58,940 nucleotides of DNA from a virus (lineage: Duplodnaviria; Heunggongvirae; Uroviricota; Caudoviricetes). A program made the position numbers and the translations under genes. Below, piece by piece: positions 48,436-53,061 of this stretch (positions within the stretch are counted from its first letter, which is position 1; each line of letters starts with the position of its first letter). Location of the stretch: IMG/VR virus record IMGVR_UViG_3300050821_002544; one strand, written 5' to 3'. A model generated the notes under the pieces. The model was not told where the DNA came from. It did not search any database and saw only the letters and a program-made list of their open reading frames with translations.

Positions 48436-48665
48436 GCCAATGTTATATCTGTTTCCTTAATAATCTTAATCTTACCCACAAACTCTACCTGATAACCTAT
48501 TAAGGATTCATCATCGATTTCTTTCTTGTCATTACAAATAATAAACTTAGGAGATTTAGGAACGGCATGTCCTAGTGAGTGAATCCTACCGGCAACTCCA
48601 TTGACGAATACTGACTCACCAATCTTATACTTGTGTTTAAACATATTAACGCTCCTAATAGGCAA
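48432..48665 (-). CDS. Hypothetical protein (SH3/KOW-like)
   Basis: KYKIGESVFV..., probable start MFKHKY. Confidence 0.55.
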   Translation of the reverse strand: MPIRSVNMFKHKYKIGESVFVNGVAGRIHSLGHAVPKSPKFIICNDKKEIDDESLIGYQVEFVGKIKIIKETDITLA

Positions 48666-48693
48666 ATAAAAAGAGGGTCTTGCGACCCTCTTC
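48666..48693 (-). terminator. Rho-independent terminator downstream of the tmRNA gene
   Basis: AAGAGGGTC-GCAA-GACCCTCTT followed by a U-run on the minus strand. Confidence 0.85.
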
Positions 48694-48990
48694 CCGATCC
48701 GTTCTGTTTACAAGAGGATCAAACTCAGTTTAGGCAGCAAGTGCCTGAACAAACGTGTCATCGTTAGATGCAGTTATAGTTTTGCACTGTCACGGTCGTT
48801 ACATACCGGATTGCCTTCAAGTTATTCTACACAGAGTCGATACCAGTTCAAGCCCATCAGAAGCGTTCTTAGCCACCCATTTATGGTGGACAACTATACC
48901 TCCATGGATAGTCGTAAAAACGCTTGTGGTGGACCTGTCGGGATTCGAACCCGAGTGTTCCGTGCCTTTAGTTAAAGGTTAACAATCATT
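48694..48990 (-). ncRNA. ssrA: Circularly permuted (two-piece) tmRNA; tag (A)ASNDDTFVQALAA
   Basis: Minus strand: T-arm TCGGG-TTCGAAT-CCCGA + CAGGTCC-A-CCA (48954-48927) precedes the 5' arm GGGCTTGAACTGGTATCGAC (from 48855); 7-bp acceptor stem with G3-U70; tag ORF GCA TCT AAC GAT GAC ACG TTT GTT CAG GCA CTT GCT GCC TAA (48771-48730); outer limits approximate. Confidence 0.9.
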
Positions 48991-48998
48991 ATCAATAT

Positions 48999-49691
48999 TT
49001 ATCCTTTCTGAAATACTAGCTTCTTATAGCTAAGAAGTCTCTTACGATTAGACGCAAGAATAGGACTAGAAGCAACCGCAGTCATCACGTTCCCTATATC
49101 AGGTTCAATGAACGAATAGGCTTTTCCTCCCACATGTTCAATATCTGCAATAGCAGTATCCAAACCCTTTTGATCTGGAACACCAATCACTGCAAAATAG
49201 AGTTCATCAAAATTCTTAAAAGTAATTTGATTAAAGCCCATCTTCGCAGCAACATGCGCTGCCTGTACCAATTGATACTCAGGAGAAATATCCTGTCTCA
49301 CAAAGATATAAGAATAGTGTCTCTTCTGTTCTTCCTGAGTGATCTTATACTTGTCAAATACATCAGACACAATCTGAGTGAATTGATTCAATTCATCGAC
49401 TGTTTCCAATGGTGAGAAAAGTTGTGCGGGGTCTTTCTTCTGCATCTTGCAAAACCAATGCAAGGATGACAAAAGATTTCTTACTTTCTGCCAGGGTTCG
49501 TTACCGTTATCAAGTTTGTTCTTTCTTGTAATTGGTGTGAATGCACGGCGAATCAATTGATTCGCCGTAACATCCTTTGGTTGGATACTAACCGCATCCA
49601 TTGCCTTATAGATGCACAGTCGCATAACATCATATGCGGTCGTCTTCTTGGCACGTGCCAAGGTTTTATAATCTTCTCTAAAATTCTTCAT
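48999..49691 (-). CDS. Protein with a C-terminal PTH2-like peptidyl-tRNA hydrolase domain
   Basis: YIFVRQDIS...QLVQAAHVA, VIGVPDQKGL, FIEPDIGN.MTAVA..PI pattern of PTH2-family proteins; N-terminal ~120 aa unassigned. Confidence 0.7.
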   Translation of the reverse strand: MKNFREDYKTLARAKKTTAYDVMRLCIYKAMDAVSIQPKDVTANQLIRRAFTPITRKNKLDNGNEPWQKVRNLLSSLHWFCKMQKKDPAQLFSPLETVDELNQFTQIVSDVFDKYKITQEEQKRHYSYIFVRQDISPEYQLVQAAHVAAKMGFNQITFKNFDELYFAVIGVPDQKGLDTAIADIEHVGGKAYSFIEPDIGNVMTAVASSPILASNRKRLLSYKKLVFQKG

Positions 49692-49790
49692 TTTCGTTCT
49701 CTCCGTTAATATGTAATAGTAATCAATAATCGTCTTGACTATTACACACGGAGGACCGTGTACATAATATAATTTCTACGTGTCAGGCTT

Positions 49791-49871
49791 CTACAAACCT
49801 TCGTATTCATCCCAATGCTTTTCATTTCCTATTGGAATGATAGCAATCATACCAGTTTTTTCGTTCTTCAT
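49791..49871 (-). CDS. 26-codon leader ORF (MKNEKTGMIAIIPIGNEKHWDEYEGL, amber stop), in frame with the PTH2-like gene
   Basis: GGAG SD 7 nt before the ATG; ends at TAG; frame continues through a second TAG to ATG 49691 with no TAA/TGA. Confidence 0.6.
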   Translation of the reverse strand: MKNEKTGMIAIIPIGNEKHWDEYEGL

Positions 49872-49887
49872 AATCATTCTCCAAAAT

Positions 49888-49961
49888 TGGTTCCCTAGAC
49901 AGGAATCGAACCCGCTTACAAGAATTTAGAGTTCCCTGCTAAACCAATCAGCTACTAGGGA
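49888..49961 (-). tRNA. Amber suppressor tRNA, anticodon CUA
   Basis: TCCCTAG/CTAGGGA acceptor, A73, CCA encoded; D-stem GCTG/TAGC; anticodon arm GGGAA-CTCTAAA-TTCTT; T-arm GCGGG-TTCGATT-CCTGT. Confidence 0.88.
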
Positions 49962-49969
49962 ATATTCTC

Positions 49970-49977
49970 TATTTATA
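49970..49977 (-). promoter_or_regulatory. Perfect T4 late promoter TATAAATA upstream of the suppressor tRNA
   Basis: Exact consensus 8 nt upstream of the tRNA 5' end. Confidence 0.75.
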
Positions 49978-52367: not shown

Positions 52368-53061
52368 TTACAAAAAATTTATTCCCATTTCATGTTGAAT
52401 TGTCAGAAACTCTTTACATAGTCCTGACCTTACAATATCCTCAATACCAAATTCAACAAAGGCAAACGACGGCATCTTTTGAATAATATTCATAAAATTA
52501 TGAAATCCATTTGCTTCATTTTTCTTTAAATCGGATTGTCTAAAATCACCACAATAAATCAACTTACAATCATTTCCGGCGCGCGTAATTAAAGTAGAAC
52601 ACTCTCCACCAGAAAAATTTTGTATTTCATCTGCGACTACGATACAATTACGGAAAGTTAATCCTCTTAGATGCGATGTAGTAACAAATTCTACTGTCAT
52701 CTTATTCTTAAGAACATCGTAGGCATCACCACGTCCGAATAGATCGCCACAAATTTCATAATAAGGTTCTTCATATACTTTCGCTTTTTTCTTTTGCGGA
52801 ACCAGGAAGAAAACCAATATCACGAGAAGGAACAACAGAACGTACAATAACAACTTTACTATATTCTTTATTCTTCATCACTTCCTCTAAAGCCAAAAAG
52901 AGTCCTATAAAAGTTTTGCCAGTACCTGCCACACCATGGAGCATCAAATGTTTCCCTTGATCGTATTGTTGAAATGCCAGATTCTGATTGTCCGTTAGCG
53001 GCTTGATATTCCTTAATGAGAAGTGCTGCGGATTCTTCGCTTTCTTGTTGGCTCTTGACAT
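52368..53061 (-). pseudogene. phoH: PhoH-family ATPase interrupted by a +1 frameshift in an A6 run (52785-52790)
   Basis: N-part GVAGTGKT, RSVVPSRDIGFLPG; C-part YEEPY, TTSHLRGLTF, DEIQN, GDFRQSDL, DIVRSG; removing one A restores AKEKAKVYEEPY. Confidence 0.8.

What the first reader, a model, noticed from the sequence alone, without database searches (positions are those of the whole stretch)
49691..49871. Amber-gated leader ORF with an HGPP arrest-like motif, in frame with the PTH2-like gene and directly behind the suppressor tRNA
16 nt after the tRNA CCA, a GGAG-led ORF reads 26 codons, TAG (49793-49791), KPDT, TAG (49778-49776), then KLYYVHGPPCVIVKTIIDYYYILTERTK straight into the PTH2-like ATG at 49691 (exactly 60 codons, no TAA or TGA). 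HGPP resembles RAPP/RAGP-type ribosome arrest motifs (ApdA/ApdP, SecM). It can only be translated if both ambers are suppressed, because there is no start codon between them and HGPP. The HGPP codons also form a CACGG-TCCT-CCGTG hairpin. Hypothesis: a sensor that couples suppressor-tRNA activity or ribosome stalling to expression of the hydrolase. Caveats: an open 30-codon run can arise by chance, and the hydrolase has its own GGAG SD.
Basis: partly seen in the sequence, partly recalled or inferred. Interest (0 to 1): 0.85.

Follow-up and report, generated by a model that had tools for sequence, protein, structure and literature searches.

The report
Stop-codon-gated ribosome-arrest leader in phage
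A short leader in front of a phage peptidyl-tRNA-hydrolase-like gene can be read only if the phage's own suppressor tRNA reads through two stop codons, after which a known ribosome-stalling motif (HGPP) probably unmasks the gene's ribosome-binding site; this would be a natural sensor of stop-codon suppression and gives "orphan" phage suppressor tRNAs a target.

Summary
On the minus strand a GGAG-led 26-codon ORF is followed by TAG, KPDT, TAG and KLYYVHGPP, and stays open to the ATG at 49691.

It is not chance. About 25 diverged phage loci (33-77% identity in the downstream protein) share the layout: an ORF, one or two stops, 4-12 codons, then (R/H)(G/A/D)PP ending 49-58 nt (65 in one locus) before the gene.
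- The motif is kept through synonymous codon changes.
- Where a suppressor tRNA lies in the fetched DNA, the gating stop matches its anticodon: TAG with CUA, and TGA with UCA in three separate lineages.
- In every gated locus the Pro-Pro codons, or the bases just after them, are predicted to pair with the gene's Shine-Dalgarno.

Best reading (about 0.7): suppression lets ribosomes reach the arrest motif, the stalled ribosome frees the SD, and the PTH2-fold gene switches on.

Two details are incidental: being in frame with the gene, and the small CACGG/CCGTG hairpin.

Many other phage PTH2-like genes, including four cultured phages, carry the amber inside the ORF (ATG-NNN-TAG).

I found no earlier description. 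Arrest and regulation are untested. This scan had noted the tRNA/PTH2-like/tmRNA island before.

The parts
49970..49977 (-). T4-type late-promoter-like TATAAATA, 8 nt upstream of the tRNA; likely start of the tRNA-leader-hydrolase-tmRNA transcript
   Evidence: The same box stands before the tRNA in L005, and CTAAATA-like boxes in L001, L003 and L004. The motif is not enriched in the window (4 hits against 9.5 expected), so promoter function is inferred only. No sigma-70-like promoter lies on the minus strand between the tRNA and the gene.
49888..49961 (-). Amber suppressor tRNA (anticodon CUA, encoded CCA)
   Evidence: ARAGORN; Rfam tRNA, 51.8 bits. A CUA or UCA tRNA sits upstream of the homologous gene in most related loci.
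49794..49882 (-). SD (GGAG, 49882-49879) and 26-codon feeder ORF MKNEK...DEYEGL, which delivers ribosomes to the first gating stop
   Evidence: The C-terminal (D/E)YEG(L/F) before the stop recurs in L013, L016, L095, L168, L170 and L118. In other loci a 2-7-codon mini-ORF, or the end of a long upstream gene, plays this role.
49776..49793 (-). Gate: TAG (49793-49791), KPDT, TAG (49778-49776)
   Evidence: The pattern stop - xPDT-like - stop is conserved in most T4-like relatives. The stops are TGA...TGA in L090, L092 and L172, whose tRNA is UCA.
49749..49775 (-). Arrest-peptide segment KLYYV-HGPP (HGPP = CAC GGT CCT CCG, 49760-49749); the Pro-Pro codons double as the anti-SD
   Evidence: The motif is RGPP, HGPP, RAPP, RDPP or HDPP in relatives, with synonymous codon variation. 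RGPP, RAPP, RDPP and HGPP are reported stalling or strongly avoided motifs (PMC12992588).
49695..49758 (-). SD-sequestering hairpin: 5' arm from the G/P codons (UCCUCCGUGUGUAAUAGUC...), 3' arm ending in the SD GGAG (49704-49701) of the hydrolase gene
   Evidence: MFE -21.8 kcal/mol, z -3.2, 0 of 200 shuffles fold as well. The same architecture holds in 19 of 19 loci and in the 15 further gated loci (P 0.64-1.00). 55 control genes give mean P 0.26. The inner stem covaries. Masking a stalled-ribosome footprint frees the SD.
48999..49691 (-). Regulated gene: 230-aa protein, N-terminal helical domain plus C-terminal PTH2-fold domain
   Evidence: 81 homologues cover 99-100% of the 230 aa, and nearly all of the 34 aligned start at MK(D/N)F.... 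AF2 model pLDDT 92. Foldseek top hits are archaeal Pth2 and human Bit1, probability 1.0. No Pfam hit.
48639..49042 (-). tmRNA gene overlapping the 3' end of the hydrolase gene (same module, not part of the leader)
   Evidence: ARAGORN 48639-49019; Rfam beta_tmRNA 48667-49042 and tmRNA_permuted 48730-48987. tmRNA follows the gene in L001, L004, L005, L014, L018, L088, L092, L169 and L172.
49742..49765 (-). Unexplained: conserved out-of-frame ATG (49765-49763, inside TAT-GTA) opening a 7-codon ORF (MYTVLRV) that ends in the 5' arm of the hairpin
   Evidence: Read directly. 'TTATG' or 'AATG' is kept 2-4 codons before the R/H codon in most T4-like relatives. In L016, L018 and L172 that ORF runs in frame into the gene. 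Third-position changes alter this frame's residues (V/D, L/H) while RGPP stays fixed, so selection acts on the RGPP frame.

Best explanation
This is a suppression-gated ribosome-arrest leader.

The tRNA(CUA), the leader, the PTH2-fold gene and the tmRNA appear to be made from one (probably late) transcript. Ribosomes start at the GGAG-led 26-codon ORF.
- Without an active amber suppressor, they terminate at TAG 49793-49791, or at the back-up TAG 49778-49776. That is too far upstream to touch the hairpin in which the Pro-Pro codons (CCU CCG) and the following bases pair with the SD (GGAG, 49704-49701). The gene stays poorly translated.
- With the phage's charged suppressor tRNA, both ambers are read. 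The ribosome translates KLYYV-HGPP and arrests there, as at known RxPP/HGPP motifs, where peptide-bond formation with the A-site Pro-tRNA fails.
- The arrested ribosome holds the 5' arm of the hairpin. The SD is freed and the hydrolase-like protein is made.

Two gating stops would make the response steeper and less leaky.

Shown here: the anatomy, its peptide-level conservation, the covariation of stop type with anticodon, and the predicted anti-SD pairing.

Inferred: that arrest happens, that it switches the gene ON, and the purpose. The likely purpose is to make a peptidyl-tRNA hydrolase, next to a tmRNA, only when read-through is occurring and creating stalled or non-stop ribosomes.
For: 1. 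Conservation at the peptide level. The layout [ORF] - stop - (4-6 codons - stop) - 4-12 codons - (R/H)(G/A/D)PP occurs upstream of homologues at 33-77% identity. Codons vary synonymously, for example CGA GGT CCT CCT, CGA GGA CCA CCT, CGT GGG CCG CCC and AGA GGA CCT CCC.

2. Fixed geometry. The end of the PP codons lies 49-58 nt before the gene's ATG in the T4-like loci (65 in L031; 50-62 in the jumbo-phage loci), while the frame relative to that ATG is random.

3. Covariation with the tRNA. About 18 lineages with TAG gates have a CUA tRNA in the fetched flank. L090, L092 and L172 use TGA...TGA and have a UCA tRNA. The three opal cases sit apart on the protein tree: 3 changes, with starred branches forcing at least 2. 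The L090 (UCA) and L093 (CUA) tRNAs share one scaffold.

4. Anti-SD structure. The SD pairs with the PP codons or the 7-12 nt after them in 19 of 19 loci, mean z -3.9, mean P 0.90. The 15 further gated loci give P 0.64-1.00; the ungated L173 gives 0.18. 55 control genes give mean P 0.26, and 13% exceed 0.7. The window hairpin has z -3.2. Compensatory changes occur in the inner stem. A stalled-ribosome mask releases the SD.

5. Motif biology. RGPP and RAPP give robust arrest that EF-P does not relieve. RGPP is the most avoided tetrapeptide in the major bacterial groups surveyed. RDPP is partly permissive. HGPP came out of E. coli stalling screens (PMC12992588). The window has no other such motif on its coding strand.

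6. Enrichment. 30 gated-RxPP hits on the gene strand (27 TAG) against 1-8 for decoys.

7. Independent route to the same logic. 47 of 50 PTH2-like ORFs with a stop close to the N-terminus have TAG, 30 of them as ATG-NNN-TAG, and 39 have a CUA tRNA in the flank. These include phages ME3, Arash, XacN1 and RAS14.

8. A homing-endonuclease insertion in L001 split the leader. RGPP is rebuilt in frame behind the endonuclease gene's own TAG, with different codons.

9. The base after the gating stop is a purine in 27 of 33 cases. From my own knowledge of E. coli amber suppression, that context favours suppression.
Against: - There is no experimental evidence of any kind: no toeprint, ribosome profile, reporter or proteomics.
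- HGPP is less well characterised than RGPP or RAPP, and arrest strength depends on upstream context and on the host ribosome, which is unknown.
- All RNA structures are predictions. An all-locus MAFFT/RNAalifold run gave no consensus, so covariation is shown only for the inner stem of a 10-sequence subset.
- The nucleotide conservation of the block TAG-AAGCCTGAYACG-TAG, and of an out-of-frame ATG just before the motif, exceeds what the peptide model needs. This hints at a further RNA-level or re-initiation role.
- One relative (L173) has an ungated ...TRPP... ORF with weak SD pairing.
- The amino acid inserted by the tRNA, and its efficiency, are unknown.
- The window is not amber-recoded, so why suppression exists at all is unresolved.
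Confidence: 0.7

Rival explanations
1. Same anatomy, different logic: a monitoring or feedback loop, or a negative switch. The arrested leader peptidyl-tRNA would itself be a substrate that the PTH2-like enzyme or the tmRNA resolves, so the leader measures rescue capacity as SecM measures Sec activity. Alternatively, arrest triggers mRNA cleavage or blocks initiation, lowering expression.
For: Classical arrest peptides are released by the product of the downstream gene (PMC12992588). Here the downstream product has a peptidyl-tRNA hydrolase fold and is followed by a tmRNA. The arrest site lies 57 nt from the start codon.
Against: The anti-SD pairing with the PP codons, found in every gated locus, predicts activation on arrest, not repression. 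Nothing tested here shows that the enzyme acts on ribosome-bound peptidyl-tRNA. A feedback release would add to the ON-switch model rather than replace it.
Confidence: 0.14
2. The gate senses release-factor activity or the host's termination state (RF1 for TAG, RF2 for TGA), not the phage tRNA specifically. Read-through would rise when RF is depleted or inhibited, and the neighbouring tRNA would be only one contributor.
For: Read-through always reflects competition between tRNA and RF. The logic resembles prfB autoregulation at an in-frame UGA (my own knowledge). Some gated loci show no suppressor tRNA within the fetched flank: L014, L018, L088, L094, L097 and L174.
Against: Stop type tracks the anticodon of the linked tRNA through at least two independent switches. 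The missing tRNAs may simply lie outside the 2.5-kb flanks or beyond the ends of short contigs.
Confidence: 0.08
3. Read-through makes an N-terminally extended isoform of the hydrolase. The 60 codons are in frame with the ATG at 49691, so the leader would be coding sequence of a 290-aa protein.
For: In the window the frame is open from 49871 to the gene. L003 is also open and in frame.
Against: The frame relative to the gene is 0/1/2 in 8/7/5 of 20 listed loci, and most loci have a TAA, TGA or further stop in between. Homologues are 215-250 aa and nearly all of the 34 aligned start at the same MK(D/N)F. The 290-aa read-through product gains no Pfam domain. An arrest motif inside an ORF would hinder its own synthesis.
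Confidence: 0.03
4. A purely nucleic-acid element (promoter, RNase processing site between tRNA and mRNA, or structured RNA) whose TAGs and GGTCCTCC are conserved as bases. The peptide reading would be coincidental.
For: The block TAG-AAGCCTGAYACG-TAG-N14-GGTCCTCC is almost identical in L003, L004, L005 and the window despite 44-77% protein identity. tRNA and tmRNA maturation must cut this transcript.
Against: Distant loci keep R-G-P-P with entirely different codons, and keep the gating stop with different flanking bases. TAG changes to TGA together with the anticodon. There is no Rfam family there, no repeat of the block elsewhere in the window, and no promoter-like site on that strand.
Confidence: 0.03

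Closest known systems
RAPP-type arrest peptides upstream of regulated genes (ApdA, ApdP, ApcA, CruR; SecM with RAGP)
   Same: A short upstream ORF carries an R(A/G)PP-like core near its end, followed by a stem-loop that hides the SD of the next gene. A stalled ribosome is thought to open it (PMC12992588, PMC10951233, PMC7897499). The motif variants seen here (RGPP, RAPP, RDPP, HGPP) are the ones reported as stalling or avoided.
   Different: Known examples start at an ordinary start codon and usually carry a signal or membrane segment; arrest is tuned by secretion force or a ligand. Here the arrest segment has no start codon of its own and is reached only through one or two stop codons matched to a phage-encoded suppressor tRNA. 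There is no localisation signal, the setting is a phage, and the regulated gene is a PTH2-fold protein. No sequence homology to ApdA or ApdP was found or claimed.
AMD1 C-tail (vertebrates): stop-codon read-through followed by an arrest peptide
   Same: Ribosomes that read through a stop codon run into a conserved arrest sequence, and the stall has a regulatory effect (abstract of PMC13025110).
   Different: AMD1 is eukaryotic, with spontaneous read-through of the main ORF's own stop. The stall is at the next stop and limits the upstream ORF. There is no dedicated suppressor tRNA and no SD unmasking.
Engineered amber-gated leader peptides (Liu, Qi, Yanofsky and Arkin 2011, as described in PMC6412442)
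   Same: A TAG placed in a leader peptide makes downstream gene expression depend on an amber suppressor tRNA.
   Different: That design is synthetic and acts through transcription attenuation of the tna leader. The element here is natural, translational, and uses an RxPP arrest with an anti-SD hairpin.
Phage-encoded suppressor tRNAs and stop-codon recoding (for example bioRxiv 10.1101/2021.08.26.457843; XacN1, PMC5852040)
   Same: A phage carries a CUA or UCA tRNA that changes how a stop codon is read during infection.
   Different: The window is not recoded: it has long TAG-free ORFs and uses TAG as a stop. For non-recoded phages, targets of the tRNA were reported as not identified (PMC5852040; the abstract of PMC9022506 says the same for phage Summit). 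Here a specific, conserved target is identified.
prfB (RF2) autoregulatory frameshift at an in-frame UGA
   Same: An early in-frame stop codon is used as a sensor of decoding and termination capacity (my own knowledge).
   Different: prfB works by a +1 frameshift within its own ORF and senses RF2. It has no arrest peptide and no suppressor tRNA.

Membership tests
RAPP-like ribosome arrest peptide leaders (ApdA/ApdP/ApcA/SecM type) | Core motif R-A/G-P-P, or a documented permissive or stalling variant, near the end of a small upstream ORF | tested here: met
   HGPP in the window. RGPP, RAPP, RDPP or HDPP in about 25 related loci. Motif status comes from PMC12992588.
RAPP-like ribosome arrest peptide leaders (ApdA/ApdP/ApcA/SecM type) | The downstream gene's SD is held in a stem-loop that a ribosome stalled at the motif would disrupt | tested here: met
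   Prediction only. 19 of 19 loci (mean P 0.90) and the 15 further gated loci (P 0.64-1.00), against mean P 0.26 in 55 control genes.
RAPP-like ribosome arrest peptide leaders (ApdA/ApdP/ApcA/SecM type) | Demonstrated elongation arrest (peptidyl-tRNA accumulation or toeprint at the motif) | not testable with these tools
   Needs in vitro translation or ribosome profiling.
RAPP-like ribosome arrest peptide leaders (ApdA/ApdP/ApcA/SecM type) | N-terminal signal or membrane segment, so that arrest is released by the localisation machinery (monitoring substrate) | tested here: not met
   Read by eye; no signal-peptide predictor was run. Feeder ORFs are 2-30 codons, or the tail of an unrelated gene, with no signal-like segment. 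So it works like an arrest leader but is not a Sec/YidC monitoring substrate.
PTH2 peptidyl-tRNA hydrolase (PF01981) | PTH2 alpha/beta fold | tested here: met
   Residues about 120-230. Top Foldseek hits are 3erj, 2zv3, 1wn2, 1q7s and 1xty, probability 1.0, TM about 0.7 by target. The nearest Atlas clusters are viral PF01981-bearing proteins (a lead only).
PTH2 peptidyl-tRNA hydrolase (PF01981) | Match to the Pfam model above its gathering score | tested here: not met
   No PF01981 hit at E <= 0.1.
PTH2 peptidyl-tRNA hydrolase (PF01981) | Catalytic residues and hydrolase activity | tested here: inconclusive
   Invariant D198 and T204 in EPDIGN..TA, and H146 in QLVQAAH, are present. From my own recollection of archaeal Pth2, the Lys of the GK motif seems to be replaced (E-Y-Q). 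No residue-level superposition was done. Activity is untested.
Stop-codon-recoded phage genome (code 15 or code 4 type) | Many essential genes interrupted by the reassigned stop; ORFs lengthen specifically under that code | tested here: not met
   ORFs of up to 1798 aa are intact under code 11, and TAG ends 6 genes. Reading TAG as sense gives no greater gain than reading TGA or TAA as sense. The TAG-terminated genes checked have back-up stops.
Suppressor-tRNA-dependent (read-through) gene | An in-frame stop that must be decoded, cognate to a co-encoded suppressor tRNA | tested here: met
   TAG with CUA in about 18 lineages and TGA with UCA in 3, with no mismatch. There is no start codon between the gate and the motif in the window. 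The scan excluded hits with an in-frame ATG there.

The most novel reading that the evidence does not exclude
Orphan suppressor tRNAs of non-recoded phages may be dedicated trans-acting translational switches, with the PTH2-like gene as their conserved target. The gene is gated either directly (ATG-NNN-TAG) or through a stop-gated RxPP arrest leader. The tRNA would then act as a timer or 'code-state' signal. The PTH2-like enzyme may in turn release the arrested leader, closing a monitoring loop analogous to SecM-SecA but for ribosome rescue.
Probability: 0.3. Interest if true: 0.95.

Novelty: new variant of a known kind. Interest (0 to 1): 0.88.

Why it matters
1. It gives a concrete, conserved target for suppressor tRNAs in phages that are not recoded. 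Genome papers state that no target could be found (XacN1, PMC5852040; phage Summit, abstract).

2. It would be the first natural arrest-peptide leader whose input is stop-codon suppression. That makes it a built-in sensor of the cell's decoding state, and it extends RAPP-type arrest peptides from bacterial secretion and metal control to phages.

3. It shows why such leaders escape ORF-based searches: the arrest segment has no start codon of its own.

4. It exposes systematic mis-annotation of phage PTH2-like genes, where internal GTG starts or truncated ORFs are called because of the early amber.

5. The parts (gate, arrest motif, anti-SD hairpin) form a compact natural design for suppressor-dependent gene switches.

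6. It is directly testable with simple reporters.

Tried and rejected
- blastn of the module against cultured-phage records found nothing.
- Pfam and PHROGs gave no useful hit for the 230-aa protein, the 290-aa read-through product or the upstream 151-aa ORF.
- Global TAG recoding: rejected.
- Read-through fusions at the other TAG-terminated genes (23984, 55851): rejected, because back-up TAA or TGA stops follow within a few codons.
- The block as a repeated promoter or operator: rejected, because it is unique in the window and no promoter-like site lies on that strand.
- An exact-pattern scan of viral contigs with the nucleotide block returned only two already known loci. This showed that conservation is at the peptide level, not the base level.
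- MAFFT plus RNAalifold on 18 leaders gave no structure, because the variable loops misalign. I replaced this with per-locus folding, shuffles and control genes and a 10-sequence subset.
Its wobble-wobble pair forms in 8 of 18 loci (my count).
- An anti-SD role for the UCCU loop alone: dropped, because L008, L090 and others have ACCA there.
- The small genes behind gated leaders in L061 and L127 show no detectable similarity to the N-domain by hhalign. Only the L052 gene does.
So there is no genome-wide tRNA or TAG census and no expression data.
Full report
**Observation**

On the minus strand the window reads as follows:
- a TATAAATA box (49977-49970);
- tRNA(CUA) (49961-49888, with encoded CCA);
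- 16 nt containing GGAG;
- ATG at 49871 opening a 26-codon ORF (MKNEK...DEYEGL);
- TAG (49793-49791), KPDT, TAG (49778-49776);
- KLYYV-HGPP-CVIVK..., running open to the ATG at 49691 of a 230-aa ORF;
- a tmRNA gene overlapping the end of that ORF.

No in-frame start codon lies between the second TAG and HGPP. The window uses the standard code: ORFs reach 1798 aa, TAG ends six genes, and reading TAG as sense gives no specific gain. HGPP is the only [RH][GADS]PP-coding site on the coding strand of the whole window.

**The leader is conserved as a peptide and as an arrangement**

The 230-aa protein has 81 relatives of 215-250 aa that cover 99-100% of it. Nearly all of the 34 aligned begin at the same MK(D/N)F start. 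I fetched the DNA around relatives from viral contigs, metagenomes and assemblies.

Upstream of the gene, about 25 distinct loci at 33-77% protein identity show the same layout:
- a feeder ORF, which may be a 2-30-codon mini-ORF or the tail of a long upstream gene;
- a stop codon, usually followed by 4-6 codons (often xPDT) and a second identical stop;
- 4-12 codons with no start codon;
- then (R/H)(G/A/D)PP.

Variants are RGPP (most loci); HGPP (window, L090, L092, L169-L171); RAPP (L088, L094, L174); RDPP (L020); HDPP (L168); and RPP-stop (L031).

The four codons vary synonymously (CGA GGT CCT CCT, CGA GGA CCA CCT, CGT GGG CCG CCC, AGA GGA CCT CCC). The same base changes alter the overlapping frames, so selection acts on this reading frame.

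The end of the PP codons lies 49-58 nt before the gene's ATG in the T4-like loci and 65 nt in L031.

In L001 a homing-endonuclease-like gene has split the leader between ...ARG and PP. Behind that gene's own TAG the sequence continues in frame as NYIRGPPSL, with new codons.

A blind scan of all 167 loci (766 kb) looked for an RxPP motif with an in-frame stop up to 9 codons upstream, no ATG in between, and a long ORF starting 44-67 nt downstream. It gave 30 unique hits on the gene strand, 27 of them TAG. Four scrambled motifs gave 1-8 hits and the opposite strand gave 2.

**The gate matches the tRNA**

Where a suppressor-type tRNA lies within the fetched flank, TAG gates go with anticodon CUA in about 18 lineages. 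In L090, L092 and L172 both gating stops are TGA and the tRNA anticodon is UCA. There is no mismatch.

On a tree of the downstream proteins the three opal loci are separate: 3 changes, with well-supported branches forcing at least 2. The UCA tRNA of L090 and the CUA tRNA of L093 share the same scaffold. Gate and anticodon have therefore switched together more than once.

One jumbo-phage locus (L061) has TAA before MPRGPP and a tRNA with anticodon UUA. An ATG follows that TAA, so the case is weaker.

**The arrest site is the anti-Shine-Dalgarno**

Folding from just before the Pro-Pro codons to the gene's ATG puts the SD (GGAG, AGGA or AAGG) in a long hairpin. Its partner is the Pro-Pro codons themselves (offset 0-6 nt) or the 7-12 nt after them.
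- This holds in 19 of 19 loci, with mean z -3.9 against dinucleotide shuffles and mean pairing probability 0.90.
- The 15 further gated loci, including jumbo-phage ones, give 0.64-1.00. The ungated L173 gives 0.18.
- 55 other genes in the same loci give a mean of 0.26, and 13% exceed 0.7.
- The window's hairpin (49758-49695; SD at 49704-49701) has MFE -21.8 kcal/mol and z -3.2; none of 200 shuffles folds as well.
- The inner stem shows compensatory changes at 7 of 11 pairs in a 10-sequence subset.
- Masking the footprint of a ribosome stalled with Pro1 in the P site leaves the SD unpaired.
- A ribosome terminating at either TAG ends at least 22 nt short of the Pro codons (my calculation from the coordinates, assuming a footprint of about 13 nt downstream of the A site). 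It would not open the hairpin.

**What is incidental**

The frame of the leader relative to the gene is 0, 1 or 2 in 8, 7 and 5 of 20 listed loci, and most loci have another stop in between. The in-frame fusion in the window is therefore not a conserved feature.

The 5-bp CACGG/CCGTG hairpin follows largely from GG and CC in the Gly and Pro codons. Its variable wobble-wobble pair forms in 8 of 18 loci, about the chance rate (my count).

**The regulated gene**

An AlphaFold model built on 34 homologues (pLDDT 92) has an N-terminal helical domain and a C-terminal domain. The best structural matches of the C-terminal domain are all archaeal Pth2 and human Bit1 (probability 1.0, TM about 0.7 by target).

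Pfam does not reach it, and activity is untested. In L040 and L052 the N-domain is a separate gene behind the gated leader, followed by the PTH2-like gene.

**The same coupling by a simpler route**

95 distinct PTH2-like ORFs in the fetched loci match the conserved first-strand motif.
- 50 have an in-frame stop within 20 codons upstream of the first conserved strand.
- 47 of these 50 stops are TAG, and 45 of the 47 have no ATG after the TAG.
- 44 have an ATG shortly before the TAG, 30 of them exactly as ATG-NNN-TAG.
- 39 have a CUA tRNA in the flank.

The cultured phages vB_AbaM_ME3, Arash, XacN1 and RAS14 show this pattern. Their annotations start at internal GTGs or are truncated. ME3 has an annotated CTA tRNA 450 nt upstream.

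The XacN1 paper reports two CUA tRNAs and says no target gene could be identified (PMC5852040). Expression of this gene family is therefore tied to amber suppression in two independent ways.

**Mechanism and rivals**

My reading (about 0.7) is an ON switch. Suppression of the gate lets ribosomes reach HGPP. Arrest there holds the anti-SD arm, and the hydrolase-like gene is translated.

The literature supports the motif:
- RGPP and RAPP give robust arrest that EF-P does not relieve.
- RGPP is the most avoided tetrapeptide in the major bacterial groups surveyed.
- RDPP is partly permissive.
- HGPP was found in E. coli stalling screens (PMC12992588).

The purpose is inferred. Making a peptidyl-tRNA hydrolase, beside a tmRNA, only when read-through is producing stalled or non-stop ribosomes is one possibility. 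A feedback loop in which the enzyme releases the arrested leader is another (0.14). Sensing of release-factor state rather than of the tRNA scores 0.08. An N-terminal extension and an RNA-only element score about 0.03 each and are contradicted by the frame data and the synonymous variation.

**Unexplained**

The bases of TAG-AAGCCTGAYACG-TAG are more conserved among the T4-like loci than the peptide model requires. The peptides before the stops, (D/E)YEG(L/F) and PDT, recur in both leader-type and direct gates.

An out-of-frame ATG (49765-49763) is kept just before the motif. In several distant loci the second TAG followed by G or GT forms an AGG(T) SD-like sequence 8-11 nt upstream of it (read). 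These features may tune suppression, or they may allow re-initiation.

**Novelty and limits**

Full-text searches found no natural suppressor-gated arrest leader. The nearest concepts are RAPP-type leaders, the AMD1 read-through stall, and engineered amber-gated tna leaders.

Everything here is computational. This scan had already noted the tRNA/leader/PTH2-like/tmRNA island and the conserved block with the tmRNA. The gated-arrest architecture, the covariation between stop and anticodon, and the direct amber gates are new here.

Noticed in passing
L175:1995-2040 (phage vB_AbaM_ME3), L178:1985-2040 (Arash), L176:1575-1620 (XacN1), L177:1575-1660 (RAS14); many metagenomic loci: PTH2-like genes of many phages begin ATG-NNN-TAG and then run in frame into the conserved domain. 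Of 50 ORFs with a stop near the N-terminus, 47 use TAG and 39 have a CUA tRNA in the flank. Public annotations start at internal GTGs or are truncated.
   Followed up: yes
L001:2318-2975 (same in L002, L009, L010): A homing-endonuclease-like ORF is inserted inside the leader between ...ARG and PP. Its stop is TAG and is followed in frame by NYIRGPPSL, with new codons for RGPP. The gate and arrest motif were rebuilt after the insertion.
   Followed up: partly
L031:1721-1797: ARAGORN reports the tRNA next to a minimal leader (ATG CAC TAG ... CAT CGT CCT CCT TAA) with an 8-nt anticodon loop and 'ccta'. The RPP motif is read only if TAG is decoded as a triplet.
   Followed up: no
L061:1500-1610 and tRNA at L061:3098-3188: A jumbo-phage locus has TAA followed by MPRGPP, a strong CCUCCG/CGGAGG anti-SD hairpin (-31.8 kcal/mol), and a tRNA with anticodon UUA. 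This may be an ochre version, but an ATG follows the TAA.
   Followed up: partly
L040:1700-1900, L052:1990-2500: In some jumbo phages the N-terminal helical domain of the 230-aa protein is a separate gene (hhalign probability 89%). It sits behind a TAG-TAG-gated RDPP leader and is followed by the PTH2-like gene.
   Followed up: partly
L060, L069, L070, L082, L123, L127, L166 (positions): Gated RxPP leaders with anti-SD hairpins also precede other small (100-145 aa) helical genes next to PTH2-like genes. L166 uses TGA for both the leader and the direct gate.
   Followed up: partly
L173:2383-2549: One relative has an ordinary, ungated 45-codon ORF ending ...NTRPPSAMN... at the usual distance. 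SD pairing is weak (P 0.18) and no suppressor tRNA lies in the flank.
   Followed up: no
window 49742-49765 (-): A conserved out-of-frame ATG sits just before the arrest motif. It opens a 7-codon ORF in the window clade, and runs in frame into the gene in L016, L018 and L172. Its role is unknown.
   Followed up: partly
window 49776-49812 (-): The pre-stop peptides (D/E)YEG(L/F) and xPDT, and their codons, recur before gating stops in distant loci and in direct gates (L118, L064, L034, L046). In the window AGGUUU/AAGCCU can pair so that the first UAG sits in the loop. This may be a context that tunes termination against suppression.
   Followed up: no
window 52368-53061 (-): The PhoH-like gene is split into two frames at a run of A (GAAAAAAGC, near 52790). 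One A fewer would join them. It could be an assembly error, a pseudogene or a slippage site.
   Followed up: partly
window 49970-49977 and whole window: TATAAATA occurs only 4 times in the window, against 9.5 expected from shuffles. Calling it the phage's late promoter rests on position and on conservation before the tRNA, not on enrichment.
   Followed up: partly
window 48999-49042 (-): The tmRNA gene begins inside the last codons of the PTH2-like ORF, so processing of the tmRNA would cut the 3' end of that mRNA.
   Followed up: no
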